Source of the DNA: Marsupella aquatica
Lineage: Eukaryota; Plantae; Marchantiophyta
Reading direction: 5' to 3'
DNA: 64,000 bases
NCBI GenBank assembly: GCA_973895155.1
Contig: OZ316896.1
Location: 4,006,738-4,070,737, forward strand
Both the position numbers and the translations under genes were made by a program. The notes under the pieces are model-generated. The model was given only the letters and a program-made list of their open reading frames with translations, did no database searches and was not told the origin of the DNA. This document shows positions 496-62,982 of the stretch, piece after piece (the stretch's first letter is position 1; every line of letters starts with the position of its first letter).

Positions 496-1385
496 ATGAC
501 GAGTTGGGCACTACCCGGTTGTGTTGATCGTGCGGACGGGAGCTGTGTGTGTGAAGCTCATCATCTCGTCATCTGTCCTATTTGCTGTATGGACTTTGCC
601 TTCTTACGAGTGCCCGCCTGGAGGACGGGAAAGAAAAAGAAAGGAACGGAGGTACACGTAGGAAAGTGGAGAGTCTCTGGTTCGGATGATACCCCACCAG
701 GCAATCTGAAGCTGGAGCAGAAGCCAATCGATTTCAAGTCCTGCGCTTCAATCCTCCCAGTAAGGACGACACTCCAGAAAAGCTTTTCAGTCGAGGCACT
801 ACCAGGCAAGGCTGGCGATTCATCCGTCACTCTAACCAACGCCAGATTCTGGTGTATACTGACGGAGCCTGCTCCAACAATGGCAAGACTGGAGCGGTAG
901 GTGGCTGTGCTTTGGTCTTCAAGGGTGGTGTATCTCCTGATGAGATTAAAAGCGGGAGCGCCTCCTTTCGACTCGAGGACCGCGGTCCGACCGGAATTGT
1001 GTATCCACATACCAGCAATCGTGCTGAGCTGCGGGCTGTCATCGCTGCTCTCCAATTCAAGGAATGGAGCGATGAAGGTTACGATGAGCTGGTTATCGCC
1101 ACTGATTCGGAATATGTGGAAAAGGGCGCCACGGAATGGATTGCACGATGGGGGAAAAGCGGATGGCGAACAAGGGTAAATACAGAAGTTGCAAATTGGG
1201 ATTTGTGGGAGTTGCTCTTTAAGGAAATACAGAAGTGTAAGGAGTGCCCGTGGGGAACCCTTCGTGTGATGTTTTGGCGCATTCCTCGAGGTTTGAACAC
1301 TATAGCAGATCAGGCGGCTAAGGAAGCCGCAGCGACAGGAGAGCCGCGAGACTCATTCGCCCAAATCTGCGGGGTTCTGTGTTAG
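496..1385 (+). pseudogene. Fungal-type RNase HI-like gene with Cys/His-rich N-terminus, split by a frameshift (pseudogene or assembly indel)
   Basis: ORF 496 gives CEAHHLVICPICCMDFAF. A second frame open from 690 reads FNPPSKDDTPEKLF...RFIRHSNQRQILVYTDGACSNNG...TSNRAELRAVIAAL...VIATDSEYV...NWDLWE...FWRIPRGLNTIADQAAK, which holds the RNase HI catalytic D/E/D/D motifs. The frame change lies between about 610 and 740; the few GT-AG pairs I tested did not restore the frame. Confidence 0.8.
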
Positions 1386-12875: not shown

Positions 12876-13612
12876 TTAATTACTACCCATTCGGCCATTC
12901 GATTCCGCTCACCTGTACAATCATATTTACGAATTCCGAAACGTCTAGAATTGTTCTGTTTGAGAATGTTGCGCTCCATTATTTAGAAGCAAGAAACGTG
13001 GCAGGTTTCCAATTTTGCTGAATTTGTTTCCCTCGATCAGTGATGCCTATCCCTCTCCGGCCCTCCCACTGCGAACCGATCAGAAGACTCGAAGGCTCTG
13101 AATCTCCTTCCTTTGCATTCTCTTTTGGCGCCGCTCCACTCTTCTCGAGTTTGGTTTTTGATGAAGTGCGAGGTTTACAGTCCGAGCTTTCAACGTCGAA
13201 ATTGTTACTTTGCTTTCAGGAACATTAGGTACTCCCTTCTTGCATCACCTTCCCCTGCATTGTAGCTTTACATTTGCGCCGGCTCTTCTTCTTGCGTTTA
13301 CATTTTGATGAAGTGCGAGCGTACGTTCCTAGCTTTCAACGTCGAGATTGATATTCTGCTTCCAGGAACGTAGTGTCCTCTTTCGCTGGCGAACTTGGTA
13401 CATTCCTAGCTTTCAACGTCGAAATTTACGTTCTGCTTTCAGGACGTAGTGTCCCCTTTGGCGGGCGAATTTGGATGTGAGCTTGATAAAGGGATCAGAA
13501 GTGCTTGTCCGAGACACCTTCCGTGACCGTGTCTGGTCGTCCTTTGCAGGCCTGATCAAGATTCCGCCTCGAGTGCTTTTTCTCAAGGTGAACAGACTCT
13601 GAGCATCTCAAG

Positions 13613-14272
13613 ATGACCGCCTCCGAAAACTATCTCGTACGCATCACTCTCGCTCGTATCATGAATCCTGCAATCTCTCGCACCCTGTCCGTTCCCAAGA
13701 ACACGACATTTCACAAGTTTCATGAAGCAATACAAATTGCCTTCGATTGGGCCGGTTGTCACCAATACAAGTTCGATGTGCTGGAGCCGTGGCCAGCTAA
13801 TAGCTATCGCACGAATCGCATTACTCTTCTGAGCTTGAAGGAGAGCCCGGAGCTGAACGACTGGACAACACCTGAGAATAGTATCAGAGTGACGTTACAG
13901 CAAGTGTGCGACGATCCTCAATATGCCGGCAGCCGGATGCGGTACTTCTGCGAATTCGCTGACAATTGGGAACATGTGATTGAGAACATTGGGACAGAAA
14001 GCGGGAATGGGAAGATCAAATGTGTTGCCGGTGAAGGGCATGGCCCTGCGGAGGACTGTGGAGGGATGTGGGGCTGGGAGAATCTCAAGTCTGTGTCTAG
14101 GAGAGTGTTGGCGGCAGTGGATCGAAAAGCAGCAATCGAAAGTTTGAACGAGGATGACCGGGGTGTGATAAAATGGTTTCAGAATGATTGCAGCAATGGT
14201 GACAGTGCGGGGTTGGATCCTAATCAGTGGAGCATGGATGATATCAACGCTCTTTTATCAAGTGAACTATGA
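13613..14272 (+). CDS. Plasmid pRiA4b ORF-3-like (MM3350-like) protein, copy 2, open frame (fungal-like)
   Basis: 219-aa ORF with RTLSVP..TFHKFHEAIQIAFDW..CH..KF, DNWEH, CVAGEGHGPAEDCGG..GW and C-terminal CSNGDSAGLDPNQWSMDDIN. Confidence 0.85.
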   Translation: MTASENYLVRITLARIMNPAISRTLSVPKNTTFHKFHEAIQIAFDWAGCHQYKFDVLEPWPANSYRTNRITLLSLKESPELNDWTTPENSIRVTLQQVCDDPQYAGSRMRYFCEFADNWEHVIENIGTESGNGKIKCVAGEGHGPAEDCGGMWGWENLKSVSRRVLAAVDRKAAIESLNEDDRGVIKWFQNDCSNGDSAGLDPNQWSMDDINALLSSEL

Positions 14273-27477: not shown

Positions 27478-28350
27478 CTAGAGAATATTAGGGATTGGTG
27501 CACTTCAAGGCCGCTTTGGTGTGAAGGCATCGTGTGCCGGCTTGGTAAATGACGTTAAAACATGATGATACTGGGCGTATACTGATGACCGGATTGGGGG
27601 TCAGGACATTGAGGAAGCCCAGAATTTAGTTTCTGAGAAGTACAAGACAAAGAAGTGCAAATTGGTGCAAGATCCTGCAGTTCTTCATACTTGGTCCTCA
27701 TCAGGCTTGTTCGCTTTCTCAGTGAGGCGTTGGCGAGATAATACAGCTGACTTCAAACCCCTTATCCTACATCAAATTTTGAAACTGGGCAGGATACTGT
27801 ATCATCTTCTTGTGAACTGCGAGAATGGTGATGCAGCGAATGAAGTGAACTTTGCATCCTCCATTAAAACAGGTAAAGCAGGACTCCGCGTGGAAGCCGC
27901 CACAATTGATTAGACTCGGCAACTAGATGATAGGTATTTACTTCGGGAAGATTTTAGTATTTGTATGTGCAGGAAAGCTCTTTCATTGTATTCTTCTCAT
28001 ACGATTTTCATTTTATAGGTATTCATAGTAGGATTTTCTTTACCAAATCATCGTAAGTGTTGTCTATACCTCCCGAAGTAATTTATTGCTCTGGTTTTAC
28101 CGACAGGTGCTGCATTCAATGGTTAGAGATTCGAATGGGCGGAAGATGTCTAAATCTCTTGGAATTTGATAGACCCCTGACTTATTATTAGAGGGGCTAT
28201 GCTGAAGGCACTTCACAAAATTCAGGATGCAGAGAATCTAGATCCCAAGCAAGTTGCAAAAGCAAAGGCAGGGCGAAAGGCTGATGGCTGGCATCTTTAA
28301 GGCACTGTCGGTTGTTGGCTTTTTCTAGATATCCACGATAGGACATGAAA
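27478..28350 (+). pseudogene. Valyl-tRNA synthetase gene fragment (degenerate, with one intron remnant)
   Basis: LENIRDWCTSRPLW..GHRVPAW; VQDPAVLHTWSSSGLFAFSV..W.DNTADFK..YPTSNFETGQD; ARMVM; GT..AG intron 27873-28106; HSMVRDSNGRKMSKSLG (KMSKS at 28143-28157) ... NLDPKQVAKAKAG. Many frameshifts and stops. Confidence 0.85.
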
Positions 28351-30102: not shown

Positions 30103-31195
30103 TCTTGAACGTACTTGTCGCGCCCCAAACAGAATCTCCAATGAGAAAACTGTGAATATGATCTTCCATACTCTGTACGGGATCAAACTGTGAGCTGGCT
30201 CATTGTGGAATATAGAGCTCTATGTAAACCAAAGTCTGTCTATTTTAGCCAGGACACGTTCGTGCACTCTCACTCAGTGCATTATGTGATATCATTACGC
30301 ATGGTGCTCAATAACCCCAAACGTTTCCATTCATGCTGACTTATCATGGTCAGCTCTCTCCTGTCGAATGAAAGCACTTTCAATGACATGGTGATCACAT
30401 TCCCATAGCCATCGATGCCCTTTGTAGCTCCCAAGGGTCAAACCTAGTTTGAACACTAAATGACCTTGCATTTAAGATTTATCCTCACTGAAATGTGGGC
30501 GCTCTGTGCTAGTTTTCCTTCGAATTCTCTAACTAAGTCGATGGAATGACCAACAAAGCGCTCTGGAACTTCTTGTAAGTATTTCCTTCTTTTCCGAAAC
30601 TAGGTAGGATTATAACCTTCATCTTACTTTGCCTTCCTTTGCGGAAATAGAGTTGGAGTGACTTGGATTGCTGATTCGGGGCATTCTATATATGTGGCAA
30701 TGCGAACTTTCCATCTCCAGTACCAGTGCGTTACTAATACATTTCAGTTGCTGGAATACAAAAGCGGCTCAAATGCATGGCGTCCAATTTATGGAGCACT
30801 TTTTGTTTAAAATGGGGCCCAGTTGGCAATCGAGTGAAGCTTGTGACACCAGTCACAGCCATACTCACAATCGACAAGATGGTTACTATATAATCACCTT
30901 GTGCAGAATACCTGTATCTGCCATTTGTCCATTCCTGAATGTTCCCCAGCAGACAATTGTTGACCACTCAAGTCTGGCACTTGACTGAAGGGTCCCGAGT
31001 CATGCAGCTTTGTAAAGCAACCTCTACAATAATCTGGATTCAAAAGCTGGATCAACTGAGGAATCTACCGATGGCTTCCAGACTTATTCATGGAGACAGG
31101 TGAATCAGCATAAAGATCATATAGATTGATAGTACACTGAACGCAATGCATAAACACGGCAGCAATTAGTTCAACAGTGGAAACGATAGATGGGA

Positions 31196-32591
31196 TCAAC
31201 TCGAGAGATGACTTTCATGCGCCTCATGTGCATTCAGCGCAAATCCCACGGCCTCGTAGGTGTAGACCACAACGATCTCCATGATGATGGCCATGCAGAG
31301 CCAGACCGTGACACTGCCGGACATTAGATTGAAAGCTGGGAGAGTTTCTGAGTCGAACGAGGAGAGGGAGGAGTAGATGATCCGCACGAGGAGGAATGGC
31401 AGAGAGAGGGCAACGGCAAGGAGCAGACTCTTGTCTTCTGGCTCCGCATGGGAGAGATTGCCTGACGAGAGGACTGCCGCGAGGACGATCAGAACGTAGG
31501 CGATTATGAACAGCCCGACGGCTGCCTTGCCCGGTGGGAGGACAGTGTACTTCCCAGTGTTCTGCAGCTGCTCACCCGCCTTCACGCCCCCAGCGATGCC
31601 GATGACGAGTGCCGACCCGATGAGCACCTGAGGAAAATTTTCACTCTGATGAGAGGCTATCCTTGTTATTTGGATGGCAAGATTGAGGAATGATTTGGAT
31701 AAGATCAAATTACACAAGAACTATGCATGTTGGACGGTGGGCAAGATGCAAGTTCTTTGAAGCAACTCACAACTGTCCTGACACCGTCCAACATGCATAG
31801 TTCTTGTCATCCCTCCCCATTTCTTTGTTTCTTCGAGCTTCAGAATCTAACAATTGACATCTTGCTTGGGTTCTGTGAACTATAAGCAATAACAGTAGAT
31901 CGCTAACCCCGAAGACAATTACCCCCTAGGGTATCAATTTCTCTTCCTTTACCAGATTGACTCTTCAACACTATTTCCCCTTCCGACTATTCCTTGGCTA
32001 GGATAGGATTAGCCATAAAGAGATTGTAAATTTTCGTCTCCTAAGCCAAATTCACCACTCACATTTCCTTCCTTCAACTCATTCCACTGATTCGTCTCGA
32101 CAAGGGGGACATTTAAGTGGGTGAAAAATGTGAGGATTGTGGTGTGTTGCGTGCACACCTTGATGTTTGTGTTGTTTCCCCTGAACACTTGACCTTCTGT
32201 CACGGCTGAGGACTGAACAATGTGGGAGTGTAAAATTGACCTGAATGAATTTCAGCACCACTGTAGAGGGCAATGATGGTTGCCCAAGGTTTCGGTTGAT
32301 GCCCATTATGATGCGGTTCAGGAAGGTCAGGGCTGTCATCATGAGAGGACACAGCCCAATGTTCTGAACGATTGCGGAGGCAGTTAAAATATGGATTCTA
32401 ATGTGGTCGCTCATTGTTGCTGCGAGCTCGAGGCAGGAACCGATGATTCGCACCAGGGAGAAGACGATGAGGAAGAACCATCCACTCTTGATGCCGTGGC
32501 GGATGACGAGCAGGACGGCCATGGCTAGAGCTGGCGCGTAGACGACAATCTCGCCAATGGATACACCGTTTCGATAGCTGATAGCAACCAT
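31196..32591 (-). CDS. Multi-pass (about 7 TM) membrane protein resembling the fungal DUF7702 family; 2 exons (32591-32241, 31627-31196), 260 aa
   Basis: Exon 1 MVAISYRNGVSIGEIVVY...RHGIKSGWFFLIVFSLVRIIGS...QNIGLCPL...KFIQ joins in phase 0, through a CAG|GT...CAG| intron of 613 nt, to VLIGSALVIGIAGG...LLAVALSLPFLLVRIIYS...FNLMSGSVTVWLCMAIIMEIVVV. No stops. Confidence 0.85.
31714..31807. repeat. Perfect 26-bp inverted repeat with 42-nt loop inside the intron
   Basis: acaagaactatgcatgttggacggtg (31714-31739) is the exact reverse complement of caccgtccaacatgcatagttcttgt (31782-31807). Confidence 0.9.
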
Positions 32592-34064
32592 CTTGACTTG
32601 ATCACTCTCTCGATATTTTACCGTTGCAATAATGGCCTATCTGCTTGGTCGAGACGGAATCTTGGAGAAATTGGGGTTCGAGGAGGATGTAGAGATGCTG
32701 TTTCCTGACAGTTATCGATGGCTCATTGTGACCTTCATATCGTTTAGTTCTCAAGAAGTCTTGATAACAGACAGACTTTCTGAATGAACCAAATTGTTGG
32801 TTTCTCCAGAATTCATTATTGCACCAACGTCTGTTGTCCTGTCCATGAAACAACATATTATCCCTTCCCAAAGCTCTGCACCAAATCGCTTTCTGATCTC
32901 GTTGATAGCCCTCAAGATGTGTTTGGAGCGAACAGCTTCGTCACAAATAATTGAACGAAGGCATTGCTCTCATTGTCCACTGATCCGAAATGAGACAAGG
33001 GACAGAAGTAGTGGAGAAATTGATTTTGTACAGGACATGAGTTGCTTCCAAAACGGTTAGCATCTGTACATTATGACCCTCCGGCGCTGCAAATAGTGTG
33101 ATGCAATTGTGTGGGTAGGAGGCAATGACTTCTCGAATGATTCAGCACCTACATGGTGAACGGATCACGAGGATGTACATTTCTGTTAATTTACTCGAAC
33201 GCTCTAGTTCATATATAGGTCCATCTAAATCAACCTGGTGCTGGGCTGAACTGAATTCTCGAAATTCAATCATATTTAGTATGCCAGCGTCCGTGAGAGC
33301 AGTCACCAATTGCTCTCATGAATCTCTATATTGGTTCAATGAAAGAAGCAACTAGACGATCACTCCGTTGACTGTCTTGAATTTCTTTCACCCAAGTTAA
33401 AGTGGAAGGATCATCTGAAAAGATCACTACACACAATTGAGAGTGTTTTAGCTGAGTGAAAAGAAAAAAGTGGAAGATGGATTACAAACTTCAAAACCTG
33501 AACGACTCTATCCGATTCCCGTTACATGCGTTCCCTGAGTTGTGCGGCCTGACGGGTGGAGCAGCTCTCACTGATTGCGTTCTCGCAAGGAGGCCAAATA
33601 GACACAATCGAGGCACATTCCCAGCTGCTTTTGCCTGATGGACGATGAAATGGGGCATAATCTCGAAGAAGTACAAAGGAAAGTCATTACTCTAGAGCAA
33701 GTCCAATTCGAAGTGTCAAATTTCAGCCCTTTGGAAAAAAATCCTGTTCAGCACAGAGCGGTCACAATGAAATACTCTCTTCGATAGAGCACTTCACGCC
33801 AATCTGAAACTTGCGAGTGAATCGCATTGTTCTCCAGCTTGAGAATTTCTATCTGTGTTCCTATTTCAGGTCCAAGGATTTCTATTATCCTGAGCACAGG
33901 TTTAGGAATGGGTTTAGGGTTTGAGCTCCACAAGACCTGTGATCTCCATAACTCTCATTATAAAGTGCAGAGCATTAGGAATGGGTTTGAGCTCCACAAA
34001 AGGTGGTGAGTGCTCTACCTTTTATTGGCAAGTGCTCCACCTTTTATGATGAGATAGTGTTCAC

Positions 34065-34278
34065 CACACAACAAGAACGAGAAGTAGCAAGGGAGGGAAT
34101 GGGGCTTTTATATGGGCAGGTGTGGTTTAATAATAATGACAAACAGTGAGTGAATGGGGCCTTTTATATGGGCAGGTGTGGTTTAATAATAATGACAAAC
34201 ACAACAAGAATGAGAACTAGTGAGGGAGGGAATGGGGCTTTTATATGGACAGGTGAGGTTTAATGATAGTGACCAACC
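34065..34278. repeat. Degenerate tandem repeat x3 (gaatggggc.ttttatatgg.caggtg.ggtttaat)
   Basis: Motif at about 34097, 34152 and 34230. Confidence 0.75.
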
Positions 34279-34529
34279 ATACTGATGTCCCTGTTCATAT
34301 TGTCGCCCAAAGTTTGTTTGGACAAGATATTGATTGATTCATGGAACTGGTTTGTTCATGGATTGGATGAGTGGTGGTAAACAGACTTCCTAGCTATTTT
34401 GAGGTTGGCCAAGATTCCCATGGCCAATTTCAGTTTGTCTCTACCCCTTTTTCTTCTTAGTATAGATCGCCAGTACATAGTTTGGCAAAGAATTGCCAAT
34501 GAAAGAAAGGCTCGTGGTGTTTTCTGGCA

Positions 34530-42623: not shown

Positions 42624-45600
42624 CTAGTTCTCTTTCTCCAAATCCTGGTTATAAGGCGCAAAGAGAACTGATGAGTTGTGACCGCCAAAGCCAAAGCTGT
42701 TCGACAGGCCAACTTTGACATCTAGTCTCTGCTTCTGTTCCCCAACAACTACGGACATATCCTGCAACCATGACTATCCATTTCAGTATTTCAAAAGCAA
42801 GACCGCTACCTACGTCCAACCACATCCAGCATAATAAGGCTAATGAGTAGGTCCATAACACCCTTTCGACGGATGATTACGAATTCGGCCACGTGAATAA
42901 CGAGCTCCCAGTTAATGAAGCCAATTATCATATATGAAGCTACAAAGAAATGATAAGCATCACTTCATTTCCCAAGCACGTACCACTTCTGATTCTGGAG
43001 AAGAAAGGTTCAAGGTTGGATGGATCCAGCCCGTCCTGATTGCCTGCAAAATCCCAAAACCAAGGACCTCCTCTTAGGTTAGTACATCACAAGAGAACCC
43101 GATGGCCCGTTGAAGAGGACATTGAGCAAATTGATACATGACGCAGAACTGGGAAACGAGTGCAAACCAGACAGCATATTCAATCCAGCAGGAGTTGTCC
43201 CAACAATCAGTACTAAGGACCATCAGATCAATCATGACTATGTCGATGTCCAACTATGATGCTCCACCACTAGTCCAAGCTCTAAGGGTGTCGAGGCTAT
43301 AACAGTTGCTGCACATCAGCCTTGATCGATACCCAGTAAGGCTACAAAACTCACTGCAGGTAAGTACAAAATGACGGTACTTTAAACCAGGTAAGCCAGG
43401 ATTTTAACCAGAATAAAAGCTGTCAAAGTCGACAATAAAGTGAAAAGGCATTCTCAGATGACTACACTACCAAGATTATCAAAAGCATACGACACAGAGG
43501 TGAATCAACTACAAAATCTTCATTAACAATTGTGAAATAAAAATAAAAATTCAAATACAAGCTAAACTCAAGTCCACTACCAATTTCATAGTTCCACATA
43601 CCGCCTGAACGCGAGGTCAAGCCACAGGTGCCTCTTACAGACTCAGGTTTCTAAGTGACTAGACGAGAAAATGAAAAATGATGCCCGCAGAACACAAGCA
43701 CAGTAAACCAGAACAAGATCCAAAATGCAATTCGAGGCGATAATTCGTTGTGCCAAAACTGCCCGAAGTCCACTAGGGGCCATGCTTTCTCAGGATTATT
43801 ACGAGTGGAAAAGGGGGTCGAATCAGAAAGGACACAAAGGAACATCGCTTTCAAAGTCTTCTTGTCCTAGTAGAATGGAGAGACTTTCAACCCCAAATAA
43901 GGAGCACGGTGACAAAAAGTACAACATCGCAAAAGCAAGAGAATGCGAAACAGTGTCCTCATAATCCAAGACACCATCCAGATGGACAGATCAGAACCAG
44001 AGTATGAAAAGTCCTCTATTTTCCATGTCATTTCGTAACCCGTCTACTGGAGTACAGTGGGATACATCCTCATACAGAACAGTAGTGTATCCACTTCGAA
44101 CGTCAGACTAAAGCCAGTGACCACTGCTTAACCATTCCCTTTTCAATATCTTACGCAATCAACGAAGCTTCTTGAATCAAGATTATGAGCTGAGCAGGAG
44201 ACAAAATTCAATCATGTGATACCTGTGGTATCTTAAAACCGTCTAATCCAATGAATTTGAGGAGAATAAGATAAAACACCATAAATAAACCAGACCCAGT
44301 TTCTCTCCAATACCTGGATAGTCGCAATGGCCTCAACACCCCCTGCCGCTCCAAGTAAGTGGCCGATCATTGACTTGGTAGAATTTAATCTCAGCTGCAC
44401 AACAGCGCCGAAACATTGAGGTTTAGAGATAACTTTCCGGACAGTAGACATGACGGAAGGGAAATTCTGTTAAGGCACAACGGCCGGGACATTGAAGCGA
44501 GTTTTACTCTTATAATCGAATTTTCTCAGGTACCTCTGGGTTACCGCCAAAAACTCGCATTAAAGCTTTGTATTCCTGCAAGTCCCCGGCCTTGGTTGAT
44601 GTCGCGTGGGCATTCACATAGTTGACATCTTCTGCTCTGACTCCAGATGAAGCCAAGGCGTTCTCGATGCAGAGTCGAACTCCAGCACCTTCAGTAGACC
44701 AAAGCAATTGAAGTTGATAAAGCTAACTATGAAAAGATGTCTCTGAAAACAGTGATAATAAAACGATTGTTGAGAGAGAAGAATCCTCCATACCATCAGG
44801 ATGAGGTTCAGTCATATGATAAGCATCACAAGTGAAGCTTCCTCCCAGAAATTCGGCGTAGATTTCTGCACCACGAGCCTACGCAGCAGAGTTAAAGTGA
44901 ACGACTCAGCTGGGTGGAAAAACGTGGCAACTTGGGTCTTCAGTATTGTAGAAGGGATCATTACTGATTACATTTTATTCCCTCCAGCTTCAACAATCAA
45001 AGTGCATGCAATTAAGAAAATGATACGAGTCTATACTGGAAGATAACAACTAAAAGGAAATTCACCTTAGCGTGTTCTAACTCTTCCAAGACAAGAACTC
45101 CAGCTCCTTCACCCATTACAAAGCCATCGCGGCCCTGAAAAATATGACATCAATCAGCTTAACAACGAATCCCTCTCCATCAGTTCTCACCAAAATTTGG
45201 TCTCAATTTAAGTACTTCCTACAGAATTATGCCTCAATACAGTGAAGGACGTACAAAAAGGTGAGAGTGACAGAAGCTTCAACTAATCGACATCACAACC
45301 GTCAAGAGCAAAATGAACATGTACGTCTAAGAAGAAAGACGTATCGAGAACAACCTCAGAAACCTACTAAGTGCTTCACCCAAGTGACCAGTAGAGTTAG
45401 AACAAGTGTTTGGAAGATCCAGGAGTTGAAAATCATGACACATACCGAATCCCACGGCCGTGATGCTTTGCTAGGGTCTTTATTTCGCGTGGATAACGCT
45501 CTACACGCAACAAATCCTCCCAAACCTGGAGAAGTACCCAAACACTTTTAGTTCAATGGACGAAGCCATTACGATTAGAGATCAGTACGTCCTAAGACTC

Positions 45601-48209
45601 TTCACATTAGTTGCTAAGCGGAAAATGAGACGAGTGTACCAGAAAAGGCTGACAGAAATTATAGAACAGAACTCCCTTACCAATGGGTATAATTGCTGCA
45701 TCAGAACCACCAGACAGCATCACATCCTACAAGAAAATTAAACACGAACCGCTTGAGAAATGCTGAAACACGAAAGACAACAATACAGGTCGCCAGTATC
45801 CCCCGTGAATTTGAACAACTATAAATCCCACTAAAATCACGAGTGCAGTGACTCCATACGGACGTACACTTCAGTTCAACTAAGAAAAAACTTACAGCTT
45901 CGCCTCTTAGGATGTGATTAGCGGCACTGAGGATGCAGAAATTACTTGTAGCACAAGCTGTGGAGATGGAGTAATTTGGCCCCATCCATCCCTGGAAGAT
46001 ACGAGAGCACAAAGTGTCACGATTGGCTCAAAGGGAGGGTCCACCACGAATTCAACCGTTGCATCGTTAAGTAATTATGAATATCGAGCAAGAGGCTTGA
46101 CTGCCACGAGGATCTCACCAAGTCCATTGCTAACATAGCTGAACCCATATTTGTCGTCGCAAAGGGAACGCAAAATGGATTCATTTTCCTGTAGGACGTC
46201 CTCAGAGCCGCAATGGCGTCATTGAAAACCTGTAAAGGGAAACCAAGACGCGCTTCAGAAAACTTCCTTTCACTTCAGCGCAACCTACAGACCCCAGAAT
46301 TGGAACTACAGAGCGGTCCTCGGGTTCAAATTCTGGCAGTTGCATTTTTTCGTAAAGAAAAGCACCTGCATGCCGCCCATAGCTGACCCAATTAGAATGC
46401 CACATTTTGCCTTGTCTATATCATCAGTGATTCCCGCATCCTTCACAGCCTTCTTCCCGGCTGTAAGAAGATACAGCATAAACTTGTCCATTCGCTTGGC
46501 GAACTTAGGTGCCACCCACCCATCTGATGAAAAGTCCTTGACTTCCCCAGCAATTCTCTACACCGACGAAAATGTGGTCCAAATGACAATTAGTCAAAAT
46601 GCAGAGAACAATACAACGAAGGCCTAATTGGAAAGATTGGCAATACAGCCGCACATGAAGATGAAACTCCATCCAAACCAACGAATTTCTTGTAGGGTCC
46701 TATCTCAAATCTTCAACACCCAGACTGCAGGTCCAAGCTGCATTTCATATCTCACGAAGGACAAATCCAAATTGACTAATGCAAGAAAGAAGACTTGGAT
46801 TAAAATCTCAGCATATGGGAGTTGAGCACTTTGAAAAACAAAATCCACCGCTGCAAGACCCAAACAAATGCTCGTTCACTAGAAAAGAACGAGATTGCGG
46901 CAGAAGAAGTGAGGTTTGGATACGTACTGTGGGGAAGTCCGTGCAATCAAAACCTTCAATCTCACTAACTCCACTTCGTCCCTCCAGAAGATTGTCATAG
47001 AAAGTGTCCGCGTCATGTCCTAAAGGAGTCACCATACCCATACCGGTAACAACGACCCTCCTGTCTTTGGTAGCCACTTTCTTTTTCTCGACTGACTCTC
47101 TAACAGGATGCACAGCAATAGCCCTCACAGACTTTCCTGCAAAACAAGAAGTGGAGCTCAATTCAATATCATAGGTCCCAACTTTACGCTCCAGGAGCAG
47201 TCATTCATGAAATCCTTTCGAACTAACATACAAGCTGAAAAGGTGGGAGAATCTTCCAGCCACAGAAAAATGGCCTCTGTCCAAAAATGTCATTCCTCCC
47301 GTGTCACCCCCTCACCAGAAACGCATACTGCAGAGCTGGCATAGTATCCTTAGGGAAAATGAAGTGCAGCTGCAGGTCGAAAAAAAAATTTGTCACCGGG
47401 GACAAAGACGCCAGTCACCCATGAAGGAGGGCATTCATGAGTTCAACCCGCGCACGTAACAACAGCTCGGTGCCAATCAGTTCTTTCATCCCGTCGTTTA
47501 ACGCAAAGTCAAGAATACATCTTTCCATAGATCTTGCGGGTCTTGTGGATCTCCTTCCACCAGTATCAACTGTGCTCCGAGCCAACTAGGGCAGGAAATC
47601 TGCGCACTACCCACTGGTGATCCGCATTTGTTTACGGCAGAGACCTCTCAAACGCTCCTATCAAACACACGCTCCTACCGTACATGCTGATTGATTCTCA
47701 CCTGCTCCAGCGGCCCCAGCAGCCCTTGGTTTGGTGCCACGCCTGCGAGCAGCTCTTAAGGACTTGGATGATCTCGGGGTGCCGGAAATCCCATCCCAAA
47801 AAAACATGGTTTCACCGAAAATTCCAGCCATACCATCTCCGAAAATTTGAGGCTGTTTGTGATACTCCGGGCATGCCTCCAACGTCAGACATGAACCTAT
47901 TCCATTCAAGCTAGACCCGCAGAATGCCACAAGGTTCCCGTATGACAAGATGTCCGCCGTCTGTTGCCCAGGCCCTCCAGCTGACCCCCCGCCAAGACCA
48001 CCGCCCGTGAAAGGGGACCAGCCATCGCTAGTGAACTGTTTCAAGCGGGCGCTTCTCCTTCTTGATCGCCTCCTCCCTGCCGTCGACGCAGAAGGAGCCG
48101 CGCTCCTCACAGCTGCGTCCTCCCTTGCAAACCCGCCCACTGTGGTCGACAAATATGAGGCTATGAACCATCCACACAAAGGCGCTGCCACTCCCAATGC
48201 CATCGTCAT
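42624..48209 (-). CDS. KASII: 3-oxoacyl-[ACP] synthase II, plastidial (KAS II / FabF), 13 exons
   Basis: GT-AG exons: 48209-47702, 47136-46928, 46557-46366, 46229-46119, 45991-45896, 45726-45681, 45525-45446, 45134-45066, 44878-44794, 44688-44534, 44394-44314, 43043-42984, 42761-42624. Motifs: [13 protein letters not shown] (KASII N-terminus), [20 protein letters not shown] (catalytic Cys), [32 protein letters not shown]. Confidence 0.95.
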
Positions 48210-58445: not shown

Positions 58446-58869
58446 ATGCTTGGGAGGTGACGTGTGTTCGTGACGGGATTTCATGACGGTTTTTCCAGCG
58501 TTGAGTATTGGTGGATTTTCCAGAGTTCCATCGCATGGAACTTGGAGTTTATGGGCTCAACGGATAGATCAGGGCAAGAGCTTTCTAACGGTGTGAAGAA
58601 ATCGTTGAACGGAGCTCGTGGTGCAGAGAGATCTAAGTTTTCGTCATTCTGGATTTTGTGAAGAAAGTTGGCAATCGACTCGGAGGGAGAAGCGTCAAGT
58701 GTTTTGACTCAACGGAGAGATTGAGGCAAGACGATTGTTTTTGAGTCCGGGATTGGCTCTTTGATGCAAAGAGGAAGGCTAAGCAAAATCAATTACCTTG
58801 TTGGACTTGGTGACGGCACCAAGTGCAATTGATCAACATTCATTGTTGACAAGGTACCATTTTTTTCTT

Positions 58870-59709
58870 GGGGGACCCAAGTATGAAGTGACAAAGTATG
58901 ATGGGCACTCTGACTACTTGCTATGGGAGAAGCAGGTGAAGGGAGTGCTTTATGCATCAGGGATGGGCCAACCGCTGAGCCCTCGTGAAGACGATGTTGA
59001 TGAGAAACAATGGGACCGCATGCAGGAGCAGGGAGTGTGGTGTGTTACACTCTATCTCATGCCTCCCATCATCAAGCAGTTGGGTGCACATAAGGATTGC
59101 ATGTCCTTGTTTGCGGAATTGCAGAGCAAGTATCACCGCAAGGAGTTATCGAACCGGCTCTACACTTCCTACAAACTGATGAGTTTCAGGATGAAGGAAT
59201 CTGGTATGAAGTTGCAAGACCATGTGGATGCTTTCAACGACATGGTCGTTGACTTGGAAAACCTTGGGGAGACTTTGAATGATTAGACGAAGGCTCTGCA
59301 GCTTCTTAGTTCATTGCCTCCATCTTACCAGTCCCTATCACGAGTGTTGTTGCATCGTGATAGGGATACCATTTCATACAATGACGTGGTAAGTTCTCTG
59401 CTTAGTGATGATCTTCAGCAGAAGATGCACATCACGTCACAGCCTTCATCATCTGGTGCTGCCCTCAATGTTAATCGTGGGAGGAGTATGCAGCGACCAA
59501 CTGGGGACCGTAGAACCCAGTTTAGATCTAAATCCAGATCTAAGTCCAAGGGTAAATCCCCTCAGAGGAGGCAGGTGACATGTTGGAAGTGCAACCAAGT
59601 TGGACACTTCAAGCGAGACTGTAAGGGAAAGGCAGCGGAAACTTCATCGGCAAATGTGGCTAGGGCTGATGGAGAAGCTAATTTACTCAATGATGAGTAT
59701 GTTTTATGA
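58870..59709 (+). pseudogene. gag: copia gag, with premature TAG at 59284-59286 and no clear ATG
   Basis: KYEVTKYDGHSDYLLWEKQVK...LENLGETLND*TKALQLLSSLPPSY...CWKCNQVGHFKRDC (CCHC zinc knuckle). Confidence 0.85.
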
Positions 59710-62700
59710 AGCTGGGGGTATGCCCTGTGCACGTCATCTAGGAGAGCAGATGATGTGTGGATTCTTGATTGTGCTTGCTCTTTTCATATTTGTTACATTC
59801 GTGAGTTTTTCAGTTCTTACTCTGTTTCAAACGGTTCAGTTCTGATGGGAAATGATCACTCCTGTCAAATTGAGGGAATTGGGTCTGTGAAGATTCAAAT
59901 GTTTGATGGCGCTGTGCGCACAGTGTCCGGAGTCAAGTATGTACCTGGCATGCGTAAGAATCTGATTTCACTCGATGTGTTGGATTCAAATGGTCATCAA
60001 TGGAGCGTTATTGATGGTGAACTTCAAGTCAGGTCGGGAGAGACAGTGATTTTGAAGGGGAGTAGACAAAAGAATTTGTATGTGTTACAGGGCAATACTG
60101 TATGTGGAGAGGCCAATGTAACCAAGTCTCACGAGGAGATGACTCAACTGTGGCATTCACGGCTAGGCCACATGAGTGAGAAGGGTTTGGCTATCTTACG
60201 GAAGAATGGACTCATTTCTGATTTGCAATCTTGTAAATTAGAGTTTTGTGAGCATTGCATTCTTGGAAAGCAGCATCGTCGTGCTTTTGGTGTTGGAACT
60301 CATCGTTCCAAAGCGGTTCTTGAGTACATACATAGTGACGTGTGGGGTCCATCCCCGACTCCCTCACACTCTGGAAAGTTGTACTATGTATCATTTATTG
60401 ATGATTACTCAAGATTTGTGTGGATTTATTTCATGACGCATAAGTCTGATGTCTTGTCCATTTTTAAGAAGTGGAAGGCCCAGGTGGAGAATCAGACTGG
60501 AAACACGATCAAGTGTTTGGATACAAGGGTGAAGAGTCTGAGGTCAGACAACGGCGGGGAGTACACTTCAATGGAATTTGAAGAGTACTGTTCAGAACAG
60601 GGGATAACTCGCCATCTCACCATAGTTTATACTCCGCAGCAGAATGGTGTCGCTGAGAGGCTCAATCGGACACTGTTGGAGCGGTCACGGAGTATGTTGA
60701 GCCAATCAGGTTTACCACAAGAATTTTGGGCAGAAGCTGTCAATGCCGCAGCTTATTTGGTAAATCTTTCTCCTTCTAGTGCTATCAATTTCAAAACGCC
60801 GTTTGAGATGCGCTATAAGCGGCAAGCAGACTATCATGGCTTGGTAGTTTTTGGAAGTGATGCATATGCTCTCACACCGAAGCAGAATAGGACCAAGTTG
60901 GATCCTACCTCCAGGAAATGTGTTTTTCTTGGGTACCAGAGTGGTGTGAAACCCTATAGGCTATGGGATCCTATTGCCTGTAAGCTCGTTGTCAGTAGGG
61001 ATGTTTCATTCAATGAATCCAGATTATTGAAGGAGGGGGAGAATACTCAGGTCTCCCGTACTGACAAAGGAAAATCTCCTATCCCGGATCTCGTTGAGGG
61101 GGAGATTGGTTATGAGGTGCATGACCGGAGAGAAGGAGTTGCTCCAATTATGGAGCTGGTTCCTGTGCCAGAGGAACCAGAGGAGTTTGTTGATGCTGGT
61201 GAGCAGCAAGTGGATGCTGTTGAGCTTCAAATTGTACCAGCACACGTAGATCAACCGGAGTCATCGGCTAGAAGAACATCTGGTCGCACTGTACGCGCTC
61301 CACCAAGGTATGGACAGTGGGTTGATTCATCTCAACTGCAAGAGGATGATTTTACAACTGATGATGAGGGTGATGCGTTAATTTTGGAAGAAGGGGAACC
61401 TTCTTCATTTCATGAGGCAAGTGCTTCAAAGGAGAAGCAGAAGTGGACTGCAGCAATGCAAACGGAGATGCAGTCACTAAAGGACAACAAAACTTGGGAG
61501 CTTGTTAAGCTGCCTAAGGGTCAGCAAGTGGTGGACAGCAAGTGGATTTACAAGCTGAAGGATAATTCCATAGGAGGTGGATCGAAGGTCTACAAGGCTA
61601 GATTGGTAGCAAAGGGATTCACACAAGAGAAAGGTGTGGATTACAATGAGGTCTTCTCACCAGTTGCTAAGTACTCTACAATACGACTATTGTGTGTACT
61701 TGTTATAATTTTTGGTCTGCTGCTAGATCAGATGGATATTGTCACAGCTTTCCTCTATGGCACATTGGAAGAGGTGATCTTCATGAGACAACCGCTAGGT
61801 TTTGTGAAGAGAGGACAGGAGGAATTGGTTTGCAGATTGCTGAAATCCTTGTATGGGTTGAAGCAGTCACCAAGACAGTGGAACAAGCGGTTTGACGATT
61901 GGATTCGGTCACAAGGTTTTCACAGAAGTGTATTTGACCCTTGTGTGTATTTGAAACCGGTAAAGAATGTTGTCTTTGGGTTCATTGTTTTAGTACTTTA
62001 TGTGGATGATATGCTAATTGTAGCGAAGGATAGGTCTGAGATTGTTAAGCTCAAGGCACTGCTTAGTGCAGAGTTTAAGATGAAGGACTTAGGGCCAGCT
62101 AAGAGGATTTTGGGTATGGAGATCACTAGGGACTTGGAGCCTGGCAAGCTATGGTTGACGCAGAGCAGTTATGCGAGGAAGGTAATTGCAAGGTTCAACA
62201 TGGGGAATAGCAAGCCAGTAAGTACCCCATTGGCTCCACACTTCAAGTTATCATTAGCGTTCTGTCCTACGGATGACACAGAGAAGGGGTTGATGTCAAA
62301 GGTTCTGTATGACAAGGCAGTGGGGAGTCTCATGTATTTGATGACTTGCACTAGACCTGATCTTGCCATGGCTATGGGCAAGGTGAGCAGGTACATGTCG
62401 AATCCAGGGAAGGTACACTGGGAAGCAGTGAAGTGGATTATCAGGTACTTGAAGGGTACCGTGGATCATGGTCTTTTATTTGATGCGAATGCAAAGAATG
62501 CTAAATCATTGATTGGCTATGTTGATTCTGACTATGGACAAGATTTGGACCGAAGGAGATCAACAACAGGATACGTGTTCATACTTGGCGGTGGATGCAT
62601 AAATTGGAGGTCTACTTTGCAGAAGTGTATTGCTCAGTCTACTACAAAAGCGGAGTATGTTGCAGCTGCGGAAGCAGCAAAGGAATCGATTTGGTTGGAT

Positions 62701-62982
62701 AGACTTATCACTGAAATGGGATTGCCACAGGGGAATGTGAAGCTCCATTGTGATAGTCAAAGTGCGCTCCACCTTGCTGTGAACCAGGTGATGGACAGCA
62801 GAGTGAAGCACATTGACGTTAGGTACCATTTTATCAGGCAGGCTGTGTCTGATAATTTGTTTGAGCTAGTCAAGATTGATGGTAAACTCAACCCGGCTGA
62901 CGCATTTACCAAAGTGATTCCTTTGGAGAGTTTCTCTAGACACCGTGACGTATTGCAGGTTTTGCAATTGCATCACAAGTAG
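59710..62982 (+). CDS. pol: copia pol (protease, GAG-pre-integrase, integrase, reverse transcriptase, RNase H), open and in frame with gag
   Basis: WILDCACSFH; LWHSRLGH...CEHC; IHSDVWGP, LRSDNGGEY, QQNGVAER; YKARLVAKGF, SLYGLKQSPRQW, LYVDDML; GYVDSDY, AEYVA, CDSQSA, KHIDVRYHFIR, NPADAFTK. Confidence 0.95.
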   Translation, partial: SWGYALCTSSRRADDVWILDCACSFHICYIREFFSSYSVSNGSVLMGNDHSCQIEGIGSVKIQMFDGAVRTVSGVKYVPGMRKNLISLDVLDSNGHQWSVIDGELQVRSGETVILKGSRQKNLYVLQGNTVCGEANVTKSHEEMTQLWHSRLGHMSEKGLAILRKNGLISDLQSCKLEFCEHCILGKQHRRAFGVGTHRSKAVLEYIHSDVWGPSPTPSHSGKLYYVSFIDDYSRFVWIYFMTHKSDVLSIFKKWKAQVENQTGNTIKCLDTRVKSLRSDNGGEYTSMEFEEYCSEQGITRHLTIVYTPQQNGVAERLNRTLLERSRSMLSQSGLPQEFWAEAVNAAAYLVNLSPSSAINFKTPFEMRYKRQADYHGLVVFGSDAYALTPKQNRTKLDPTSRKCVFLGYQSGVKPYRLWDPIACKLVVSRDVSFNESRLLKEGENTQVSRTDKGKSPIPDLVEGEIGYEVHDRREGVAPIMELVPVPEEPEEFVDAGEQQVDAVELQIVPAHVDQPESSARRTSGRTVRAPPRYGQWVDSSQLQEDDFTTDDEGDALILEEGEPSSFHEASASKEKQKWTAAMQTEMQSLKDNKTWELVKLPKGQQVVDSKWIYKLKDNSIGGGSKVYKARLVAKGFTQEKGVDYNEVFSPVAKYSTIRLLCVLVIIFGLLLDQMDIVTAFLYGTLEEVIFMRQPLGFVKRGQEELVCRLLKSLYGLKQSPRQWNKRFDDWIRSQGFHRSVFDPCVYLKPVKNVVFGFIVLVLYVDDMLIVAKDRSEIVKLKALLSAEFKMKDLGPAKRILGMEITRDLEPGKLWLTQSSYARKVIARFNMGNSKPVSTPLAPHFKLSLAFCPTDDTEKGLMSKVLYDKAVGSLMYLMTCTRPDLAMAMGKVSRYMSNPGKVHWEAVKWIIRYLKGTVDHGLLFDANAKNAKSLIGYVDSDYGQDLDRRRSTTGYVFILGGGCINWRSTLQKCIAQSTTKAEYVAAAEAAKESIWLDRLITEMGLPQGNVKLHCDSQSALHLAVNQVMDSRVKHIDVRYHFIRQAVSDNLFELVKIDGKLNPADAFTKVIPLESFSRHRDVLQVLQLHHK

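What the first reader, a model, noticed from the sequence alone, without database searches (positions are those of the whole stretch)
31196..32591. Intact fungal-like DUF7702 membrane gene with a long intron: possible domesticated HGT gene
Seen: a stop-free 260-aa multi-pass protein split by a canonical 613-nt intron, lying between plant genes. Recalled knowledge: YRNGxSIxExxVY...RHG...GWxFL...RIIG and ALSLPFLLVRxIYS closely resemble uncharacterised ascomycete membrane proteins, and ascomycete introns are usually much shorter. Inference: a fungal gene retained in the plant genome, possibly for a transport or stress role. The long intron argues against contamination.
Basis: partly seen in the sequence, partly recalled or inferred. 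Interest (0 to 1): 0.8.

Follow-up and report, generated by a model that had tools for sequence, protein, structure and literature searches.

The report
Fungal seven-helix membrane gene in liverwort
A plant genome, likely a leafy liverwort's, carries an unbroken, intron-split gene for a predicted seven-helix membrane protein whose known relatives are fungal apart from two copies in the liverwort Calypogeia fissa; it was likely taken from a fungus long ago and may help membranes tolerate toxic lipids, but its expression and function are untested.

Summary
The gene is real. Two exons (32591-32241, 31627-31196, minus strand) flank a 613-nt GT-AG intron and give 260 stop-free residues covering DUF7702 end to end. 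The closest relatives are two Calypogeia fissa proteins (67% identity; clade 100/100); next come ascomycete-type proteins (51% or less). DNA runs of three studies carry the locus; the two whose depth was compared hold it near the depth of its plant neighbours. The closest fungal loci are intronless, so the intron was likely gained in the plant. DUF7702 is related to RTA1/Rsb1 lipid exporters, and the C. fissa copy is predicted to have a GPCR-type seven-helix fold. Fungal copies often lie head-to-head with a fungal transcription factor (8 of 15 loci); the window lacks it. 'Domesticated' is only partly supported: no RNA evidence was obtainable. Substitutions against Calypogeia are conservative, but this copy evolved about 3.5 times faster, lost a conserved 46-residue tail and has pN/pS near 0.44 (not significant). 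An AU test did not fix the donor clade. Fungus-to-bryophyte transfer is a known, common class. Listings from my paper searches showed nothing on this family, and the scan had not found it on other DNA.

The parts
32241..32591 (-). Exon 1, 117 codons from the ATG; predicted helices 1-3 and start of helix 4; DUF7702 positions 1-106
   Evidence: about 74% identical to C. fissa P0013
31628..32240 (-). 613-nt GT-AG phase-0 intron after codon 117; GC 0.42; likely gained after transfer
   Evidence: closest fungal loci have one unbroken match across this position; none of 16 split or distant loci had its best single intron here
31714..31807 (.). Perfect 26-nt inverted repeat in a ~94-nt hairpin inside the intron (MITE-like or foldback insert; label recalled)
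   Evidence: RNA fold of 31700-31820 -59.8 kcal/mol, z -8.2; arm found nowhere else in the window
31196..31627 (-). Exon 2, 143 codons plus TGA; predicted helices 4-7; DUF7702 positions 117-242; stops about 46 residues earlier than C. fissa
   Evidence: alleles in runs X4/X5 have 4 synonymous and 5 non-synonymous changes and no stop or indel in the coding part
31000..31263 (-). Stretch with a second, ~92% identical copy elsewhere in the genome. It holds only the last ~22 codons and the 3' flank; it breaks off at 31263 in X1, X3 and X4 and its X5 piece ends at 31252; no difference is listed at the stop codon
   Evidence: (X1 record 5)

Best explanation
[quoted passage not shown] Shown: the reading frame, the domain, the plant neighbours, the clade with C. 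fissa, intronless close fungal loci, the RTA1 relation of close fungal homologues, and loss of the tail. Predicted: the seven-helix GPCR/rhodopsin-type fold (model of the C. fissa copy). Inferred: the gene arrived intronless, gained its intron and plant-side control afterwards, and came without the fungal transcription factor that often stands head-to-head with it in fungi. Also inferred: the substrate class (long-chain bases, sterol-like or polyketide antifungals, plant terpenoids), by analogy with the RTA1 family. The copy in this window has evolved under weaker constraint than the C. fissa copies.
For: 67% identity over 261 columns to C. fissa CAM6096828.1; a second copy CAM6111472.1 lies on another multi-Mb contig. 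The three plant rows form a clade at 100/100, sister to two unnamed Logan proteins at 99/96, among Pezizomycotina rows (same grouping). No other row of 158 joined the plant clade (drawn from the best 150 of 1219 hits). Atlas clusters are 100% eukaryotic, commonest Ascomycota or Basidiomycota. RTA1 link: 71 of 123 aligned members hit PF04479 at E up to 0.1, best 2.7e-8. 9 of 12 proteins tested pass its 24-bit cut-off over TM2-7; most were picked because RTA1 was precomputed for them. 16 of 30 Atlas hits are RTA1 clusters, best 0.94. AF2 model pLDDT 86.7 with seven long helices; best fold matches are rhodopsins and GPCRs, Z up to 17.0, rmsd 3.5 over 210 residues. Selection: the 80 differences from C. 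fissa average BLOSUM62 +0.45 against -0.50 +/- 0.19 in neutral simulation (0 of 1000), with 1 hydrophobic-charged swap against 5.7 expected. R48, R93, G130, P194, R199 and E234 are kept. GC3 is 0.69 against intron GC 0.42. Fungal_trans_2 factor on the opposite strand upstream in 8 of 15 fungal loci with at least 1.8 kb of flank. RTA1-family roles in tolerance of lipophilic toxins: PMC11299556, PMC11291775, PMC11791885. For Rsb1, activity depends on a loop after TM5, not on the C terminus (PMC9600344), so loss of the tail need not abolish function.
Against: The plant proteins themselves and their sister rows P0047/P0100 do not hit RTA1. End branch 0.50 against about 0.14 for C. fissa. The window copy changed 8 of 42 near-invariant columns where C. 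fissa keeps the consensus, while C. fissa changed 2 of 36 where the window keeps it. Changes are not significantly depleted at conserved columns (Fisher p 0.22; window lineage alone p 0.67). The tail is 11 aa against a fungal median of 70, and only 1 of 206 fungal rows has 15 or fewer. Exon-2 pN/pS is about 0.44, binomial p 0.19. Absence of stops alone is weak evidence (P 0.085 to 0.29 under neutrality, indels not simulated). The AU test does not reject moving the plant rows next to the distant Lipomyces/Thermoascus group (p 0.33), so the donor clade is not fixed. Whether RTA1-family proteins are transporters or receptors is itself debated (PMC9600344). The fold match is generic and shows no function. 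The window's organism is inferred, not identified.
Confidence: 0.5

Rival explanations
1. Same fungal origin, but this copy is a decaying leftover: it was useful in the common ancestor and still is in C. fissa, while in this lineage it lost its tail, relaxed, and is drifting towards a pseudogene.
For: About 3.5-fold longer branch; 8 of 42 near-invariant columns changed and the tail lost; pN/pS about 0.44, not different from neutral; a hairpin insert in the intron and a 3' fragment copy elsewhere.
Against: No stop or frameshift in exon 2 of four runs. The early stop appears shared with a fragment copy about 8% diverged, so the frame stayed open after tail loss. Replacements are strongly conservative (both lineages pooled). 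GC3 0.69 has not decayed to 0.42.
Confidence: 0.25
2. Same origin, but the protein is a GPCR-like sensor rather than an exporter: it senses a lipid or fungal metabolite and signals, in fungi through the adjacent transcription factor and in the liverwort perhaps during fungal colonisation.
For: GPCR/rhodopsin-type fold; conserved amphipathic tail helix in fungi and C. fissa; head-to-head pairing with a fungal factor; a receptor model exists for Rsb1 (PMC9600344); C. fissa hosts an ascomycete inside its rhizoids (10.1101/2025.04.01.646537).
Against: The window copy lacks the tail that such signalling would plausibly use. No solved receptor matches by sequence or stands out by fold. The paired factor is absent from the window.
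Confidence: 0.15
3. Old vertical inheritance with many losses in plants, or transfer from plant to fungus.
For: The AU test does not establish nesting in one fungal subclade. Homolog lists show only the best 120 of 166 and 260 hits, and the representative hits are unnamed.
Against: The only named non-fungal hits in the three homolog searches are C. fissa. The family has thousands of members in Asco- and Basidiomycota. The plant copies are about 50% identical to one fungal subfamily and about 30% to others.
Confidence: 0.06
4. Fungal contamination or a chimeric assembly.
For: Liverworts carry ascomycete endophytes (PMC7062687). No single Logan contig bridges this gene to a plant gene, and X1 may be the window's own source.
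Against: Depth is near that of the flanking plant contigs in X1 (21.7 against 20.1 and 13.5) and in X3 (about 55 against 54.9 and 54.1). The locus is held in three studies. The intron is host-sized. An orthologue sits on 19-Mb and 9.4-Mb contigs of C. fissa.
Confidence: 0.02

Closest known systems
Calypogeia fissa CAM6096828.1 and CAM6111472.1 ('unnamed protein product')
   Same: DUF7702 over the full length, 67% identity, shared replacements at columns near-invariant in fungi (for example R184 to S, P63 to H), clade support 100/100.
   Different: They keep the 46-aa tail and evolved about 3.5 times more slowly. Their intron position could not be seen (no DNA held).
Pezizomycotina DUF7702 (PF24800) proteins: unnamed soil-metagenome clade; named Claussenomyces, Xylogone, Cudoniella, Phialocephala, Physcia, Xylariales
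   Same: Seven-helix domain and invariant core residues; about 40-51% identity.
   Different: The closest loci are intronless, have a long tail and often lie head-to-head with a Fungal_trans_2 factor. The plant gene has a 613-nt intron, no tail and no such factor in the window.
RTA1-like / lipid-translocating exporter family (PF04479; yeast Rsb1, Rta1, Pug1; Candida Rta3; AcrD)
   Same: Seven transmembrane helices; close fungal homologues pass the RTA1 cut-off over TM2-7; Atlas features put RTA1 clusters next.
   Different: The plant proteins do not hit PF04479. No substrate, localisation or activity is known for any DUF7702 protein in the papers searched.
Fungus-to-bryophyte transferred genes (RDS1, YANB, EUPF, FB lectin, microbial terpene synthases; PMC12513842, PMC12890914)
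   Same: Fungal donor, bryophyte host, stress or defence role proposed.
   Different: Those named in the passages I read are enzymes, lectins or stress proteins; none is an RTA1-like seven-helix protein. The supplementary list of 1,809 families could not be read and may hold this one.

Membership tests
DUF7702 (PF24800) | HMM score above the 27-bit cut-off across the domain | tested here: met
   Exon 1 105.9 bits (1-106), exon 2 126.4 bits (117-242 of 244)
DUF7702 (PF24800) | Family-invariant residues kept | tested here: met
   R48, R93, G130, R199, E234 (100% columns) and P194 kept. One 100% column (R184) is S in both plant lineages; 8 of 42 near-invariant columns changed, mostly conservatively
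RTA1 / lipid-translocating exporter (PF04479) | HMM score above the 24-bit cut-off | tested here: not met
   No RTA1 hit for either exon, P0013, P0124, P0047 or P0100. The spliced window protein was not scanned whole. Nine fungal homologues do pass (24.9-34.1 bits)
RTA1 / lipid-translocating exporter (PF04479) | Seven transmembrane helices | tested here: met
   Seven hydropathy peaks in the window protein; seven long helices in the AF2 model of P0013
RTA1 / lipid-translocating exporter (PF04479) | Export or translocation of lipophilic compounds, or tolerance to them | not testable with these tools
   Needs yeast complementation or a transport assay
G-protein-coupled receptors / rhodopsins | Seven-helix GPCR/rhodopsin topology | tested here: met
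   VIA-align Z 13-17, rmsd 3.5-6.8, at most 12% identity; Foldseek best E 4.5e-3; no single standout
G-protein-coupled receptors / rhodopsins | Sequence kinship to a solved receptor, G-protein coupling or retinal binding | tested here: inconclusive
   The profile of 123 members matched none of 177,635 PDB sequences at E up to 10; coupling and binding untested
Domesticated fungus-to-plant HGT gene | Physically in the plant genome | tested here: met
   Plant neighbours; similar depth in X1 and X3; held in three studies. No single contig bridges to a plant gene
Domesticated fungus-to-plant HGT gene | Nested in a donor clade, with patchy plant distribution | tested here: inconclusive
   Sister to two unnamed rows at 99/96 among fungal rows, but AU p 0.33 for an outside placement; only C. 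fissa named among plants
Domesticated fungus-to-plant HGT gene | Transcribed and spliced | not testable with these tools
   All holders are contig sets and none is on record as RNA
Domesticated fungus-to-plant HGT gene | Purifying selection | tested here: inconclusive
   Conservative replacements, 0 of 1000 neutral runs; pN/pS about 0.44, p 0.19; no depletion at conserved columns

The most novel reading that the evidence does not exclude
Leafy liverworts that house ascomycetes inside their rhizoids took from such a fungus an RTA1-related seven-helix membrane protein, dropped its fungal regulator, gave it a plant intron, and now use it to tolerate or sense fungal lipophilic metabolites during symbiosis. 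It would be the first lipid-translocating-exporter-like gene at work in a plant, and it is testable in the C. fissa model with its existing symbiosis RNA-seq.
Probability: 0.12. Interest if true: 0.72.

Novelty: new member of a known kind. Interest (0 to 1): 0.42.

Why it matters
It adds a cross-genome, intron-gaining fungus-to-liverwort transfer of a membrane protein family with no described function. It also gives DUF7702 its first functional leads: kinship to RTA1, a GPCR-type fold, and a conserved head-to-head pairing with a fungal transcription factor. The orthologue lies in C. fissa, a new laboratory model with public RNA-seq for fungal symbiosis, so expression can be checked at once. 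The class of event is common in bryophytes, and this copy may be relaxing, which limits the interest.

Tried and rejected
No whole genome is held, so copy number and synteny were not testable. No RNA holder was listed; this is no evidence on expression. A search for a third exon carrying the missing tail found nothing in the window. Profile search of PDB sequences: 0 hits. NCBIfam: no family for P0013 or P0055. Pfam scan of 91 short frames between 27 and 49 kb: no fungal partner gene. The Fungal_trans_2 factor is not found in the window by tblastn. Intron mapping allowed one intron per locus, so multi-intron loci (L018, L022, L026) are unresolved; their best guesses fall near codons 104-113. 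L013 gave no intron solution. L041-L043 (24% identity) gave no match to the window protein and were left out of the counts. Some loci are repeats of one sequence (L005/6/8, L011/12, L022/23, L037/38), and short contigs may be transcripts. The conserved-column test and the AU test were negative. A link to the known symbiont Hyaloscypha was considered: no Hyaloscypha protein was listed among the hits, and the sister rows are unnamed. Paper searches: 'DUF7702' anywhere, 0 papers. Searches listed nothing on this gene; RTA1 occurred 0 times in the 20 rows shown of 460 and the 20 of 34. The supplements of PMC12513842 (HGT tables) and of the bioRxiv preprint could not be read and may bear on novelty and expression. 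Window neighbours were not in the collection by exact match, so the host taxon is inferred. No complex was predicted.

Full report
Observation. The gene lies on the minus strand. Exon 1 runs 32591-32241 and exon 2 runs 31627-31196. The exons cover DUF7702 (PF24800) positions 1-106 and 117-242 of 244, far above the cut-off. Seven hydrophobic segments are present. Coding GC3 is 0.69 and intron GC 0.42; six other frames in the window have GC3 0.46-0.55. The intron holds a perfect 26-nt inverted repeat at 31714-31807 (z -8.2).

Setting. The neighbours are plant genes: a Myb/SANT trihelix-type gene, an F-box/KIB1-4 gene, DUF3444, a copia-type pol ('copia' read from domain order, recalled) and a ketoacyl synthase with 11 introns of 105-1270 nt, median 169. 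Five runs of two organism labels and three studies hold the stretch; none is on record as RNA. Depth at the gene is 21.7 in X1 against 20.1 and 13.5 for the flanking plant contigs, and about 55 in X3 against 54.9 and 54.1. No single contig bridges the gene to a plant gene, and X1 may be the window's source. No whole genome was available. The host is inferred to be a liverwort from the next point; it was not identified.

Relatives. The best match is Calypogeia fissa CAM6096828.1, 67% over 261 columns with no gap at the splice junction; a 97%-identical second copy lies on another large contig. Next are unnamed metagenomic proteins at 48-51%, then named Leotiomycetes, Physcia and Xylariales at about 40-47%. 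C. fissa is the only named non-fungus in the three searches, which showed 4 of 4, 120 of 166 and 120 of 260 hits. An index-free search gave 1219 hits; in a tree of 158 rows built from the best 150 (those of 215 aa or more) plus references, nothing else joined the plant rows. In the careful tree of 43 rows the plant clade has 100/100 and is sister to unnamed P0047/P0100 at 99/96 (the same grouping in the 85-row tree). An AU test did not reject placing the plant rows beside the distant Lipomyces/Thermoascus group (p 0.33). The donor subclade is therefore not proven, and no non-fungal outgroup exists in the set. Direction rests on distribution: Atlas clusters hold thousands of Asco- and Basidiomycota members.

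Intron and regulator. Of 43 metagenome loci, 40 matched the window protein. Thirteen of the closest (L001-L012, L036; 40-49%) give one unbroken match across the domain; eight of these lie on contigs of 5.6 kb or more and represent about five distinct sequences. In 16 split or distant loci the clearest introns are 48-54 nt, after codon 49 or 93, and none scored best at codon 117; multi-intron loci are unresolved. The plant intron was thus likely gained after transfer. In 8 of 15 loci with at least 1.8 kb upstream, plus L029, a Fungal_trans_2 factor lies on the opposite strand, across both close and distant DUF7702 groups. This shows that those loci are fungal and suggests an inducible two-gene module (inference). 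The factor is absent from the window.

What the protein is like. The AF2 model of the C. fissa copy (123 rows, pLDDT 86.7) has seven long helices and a low-confidence tail helix. Its fold matches rhodopsins and GPCRs broadly, Z up to 17.0, with no standout; no PDB sequence matches. RTA1 (PF04479) is hit by 71 of 123 members at E up to 0.1. Nine of 12 tested proteins pass its cut-off, most chosen for a precomputed RTA1 label, while the plant copy and the two sister rows do not. Sixteen of 30 Atlas hits are RTA1 clusters. So it is a DUF7702 member and an RTA1 relative, not an RTA1 member. RTA1-family proteins give tolerance to long-chain bases, myriocin, 7-aminocholesterol, saponins and self-made polyketides (PMC11299556, abstract and introduction; PMC11291775 and PMC11791885, passages). 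Transporter versus receptor is debated, and Rsb1 activity is reported not to need the C terminus (PMC9600344, passages).

Is it working? For: the 80 differences from C. fissa average BLOSUM62 +0.45 against -0.50 +/- 0.19 under neutral simulation (0 of 1000 runs; both lineages pooled). Core invariant residues are kept. Exon 2 has no stop or indel in four runs. Against: the end branch is 0.50 against about 0.14. The copy changed 8 of 42 near-invariant columns against 2 of 36 for C. fissa, and changes are not depleted at conserved columns (p 0.22 and 0.67). The tail is 11 residues against 56 in C. fissa and a median of 70 in 206 fungal rows, and no downstream exon encodes it. Exon-2 alleles give 5 non-synonymous changes in 317 sites and 4 synonymous in 112, pN/pS about 0.44, p 0.19; one change rests on a contig of depth 4. 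Exon 1 alleles were not classified. A 92%-identical fragment of the last 22 codons exists elsewhere, with no difference listed at the stop. Expression is untested.

Comparison with what is known. Bryophytes average 229 transferred genes, many of unknown function, and fungal RDS1, YANB, EUPF and FB lectin are named for liverworts (PMC12513842, passages and the HGT section; its tables were too large to read). A review counts about 20 well-supported fungus-to-plant events (PMC12448838, passages). C. fissa hosts Hyaloscypha in its rhizoids and has a long-read genome and symbiosis RNA-seq. I read the first third of that preprint (10.1101/2025.04.01.646537), and a term search of its main text found no 'horizontal' or 'HGT'; supplements were closed. 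PMC7062687 (passages) lists Calypogeia species as ascomycete hosts. PMC12890914 (passages) and PMC3576715 (passages) added nothing on this family. No paper holds the term DUF7702.

Verdict. A real, integrated gene of very likely fungal origin (about 0.9), shared with C. fissa, with a likely gained intron. An RTA1-like membrane-protective role is the best guess (0.5 for the whole statement), ahead of a decaying copy (0.25) and a receptor (0.15). It is a new member of a known kind; interest 0.42.

Noticed in passing
window 690-1385 (+): Stand-alone RNase H frame of 231 aa (PF00075, 80.7 bits; weak match to bacterial RNase HI, below cut-off). It looked fungal-type to me from memory; origin not tested.
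   Followed up: partly
window 13592-14272 (+): Intact pRiA4b ORF-3-like frame of 226 aa (PF07929, 100.3 bits), only 26-28% identical to the listed plasmid proteins. A second likely microbial-derived gene; a fungal origin is recalled, not tested.
   Followed up: partly
L002, L004, L017, L022, L029, L032, L035, L037, L038, upstream of the DUF7702 match: Conserved head-to-head pair of DUF7702 with a Fungal_trans_2 (Zn2Cys6-type) transcription factor across close and distant fungal subfamilies; I did not search for it in print.
   Followed up: partly
window 31714-31807: Perfect 26-nt inverted repeat forming a very stable hairpin inside the intron; X3 shows a second, diverged copy of the adjoining 31626-31712 stretch.
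   Followed up: partly
window 33970-34330: High-copy repeat upstream of the gene (summed depth 10 to 30 times the background, many joints and loose ends), probably a small transposable element.
   Followed up: no
window 43000-48209 (-): Plant beta-ketoacyl-ACP synthase (KAS II-like, label recalled) with 11 GT-AG introns and 558 stop-free codons up to the end of the stretch read.
   Followed up: partly
window 58783-62982 (+): Copia-type retrotransposon gag and pol frames; the pol frame is open for 1090 aa.
   Followed up: no
window 27569-27913 (+): Weak class I tRNA synthetase match (19.2 bits, below cut-off), perhaps a gene fragment.
   Followed up: no
L036 5264-5491 (-): A second, more distant DUF7702 gene begins about 3.6 kb from the first in this fungal locus.
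   Followed up: no
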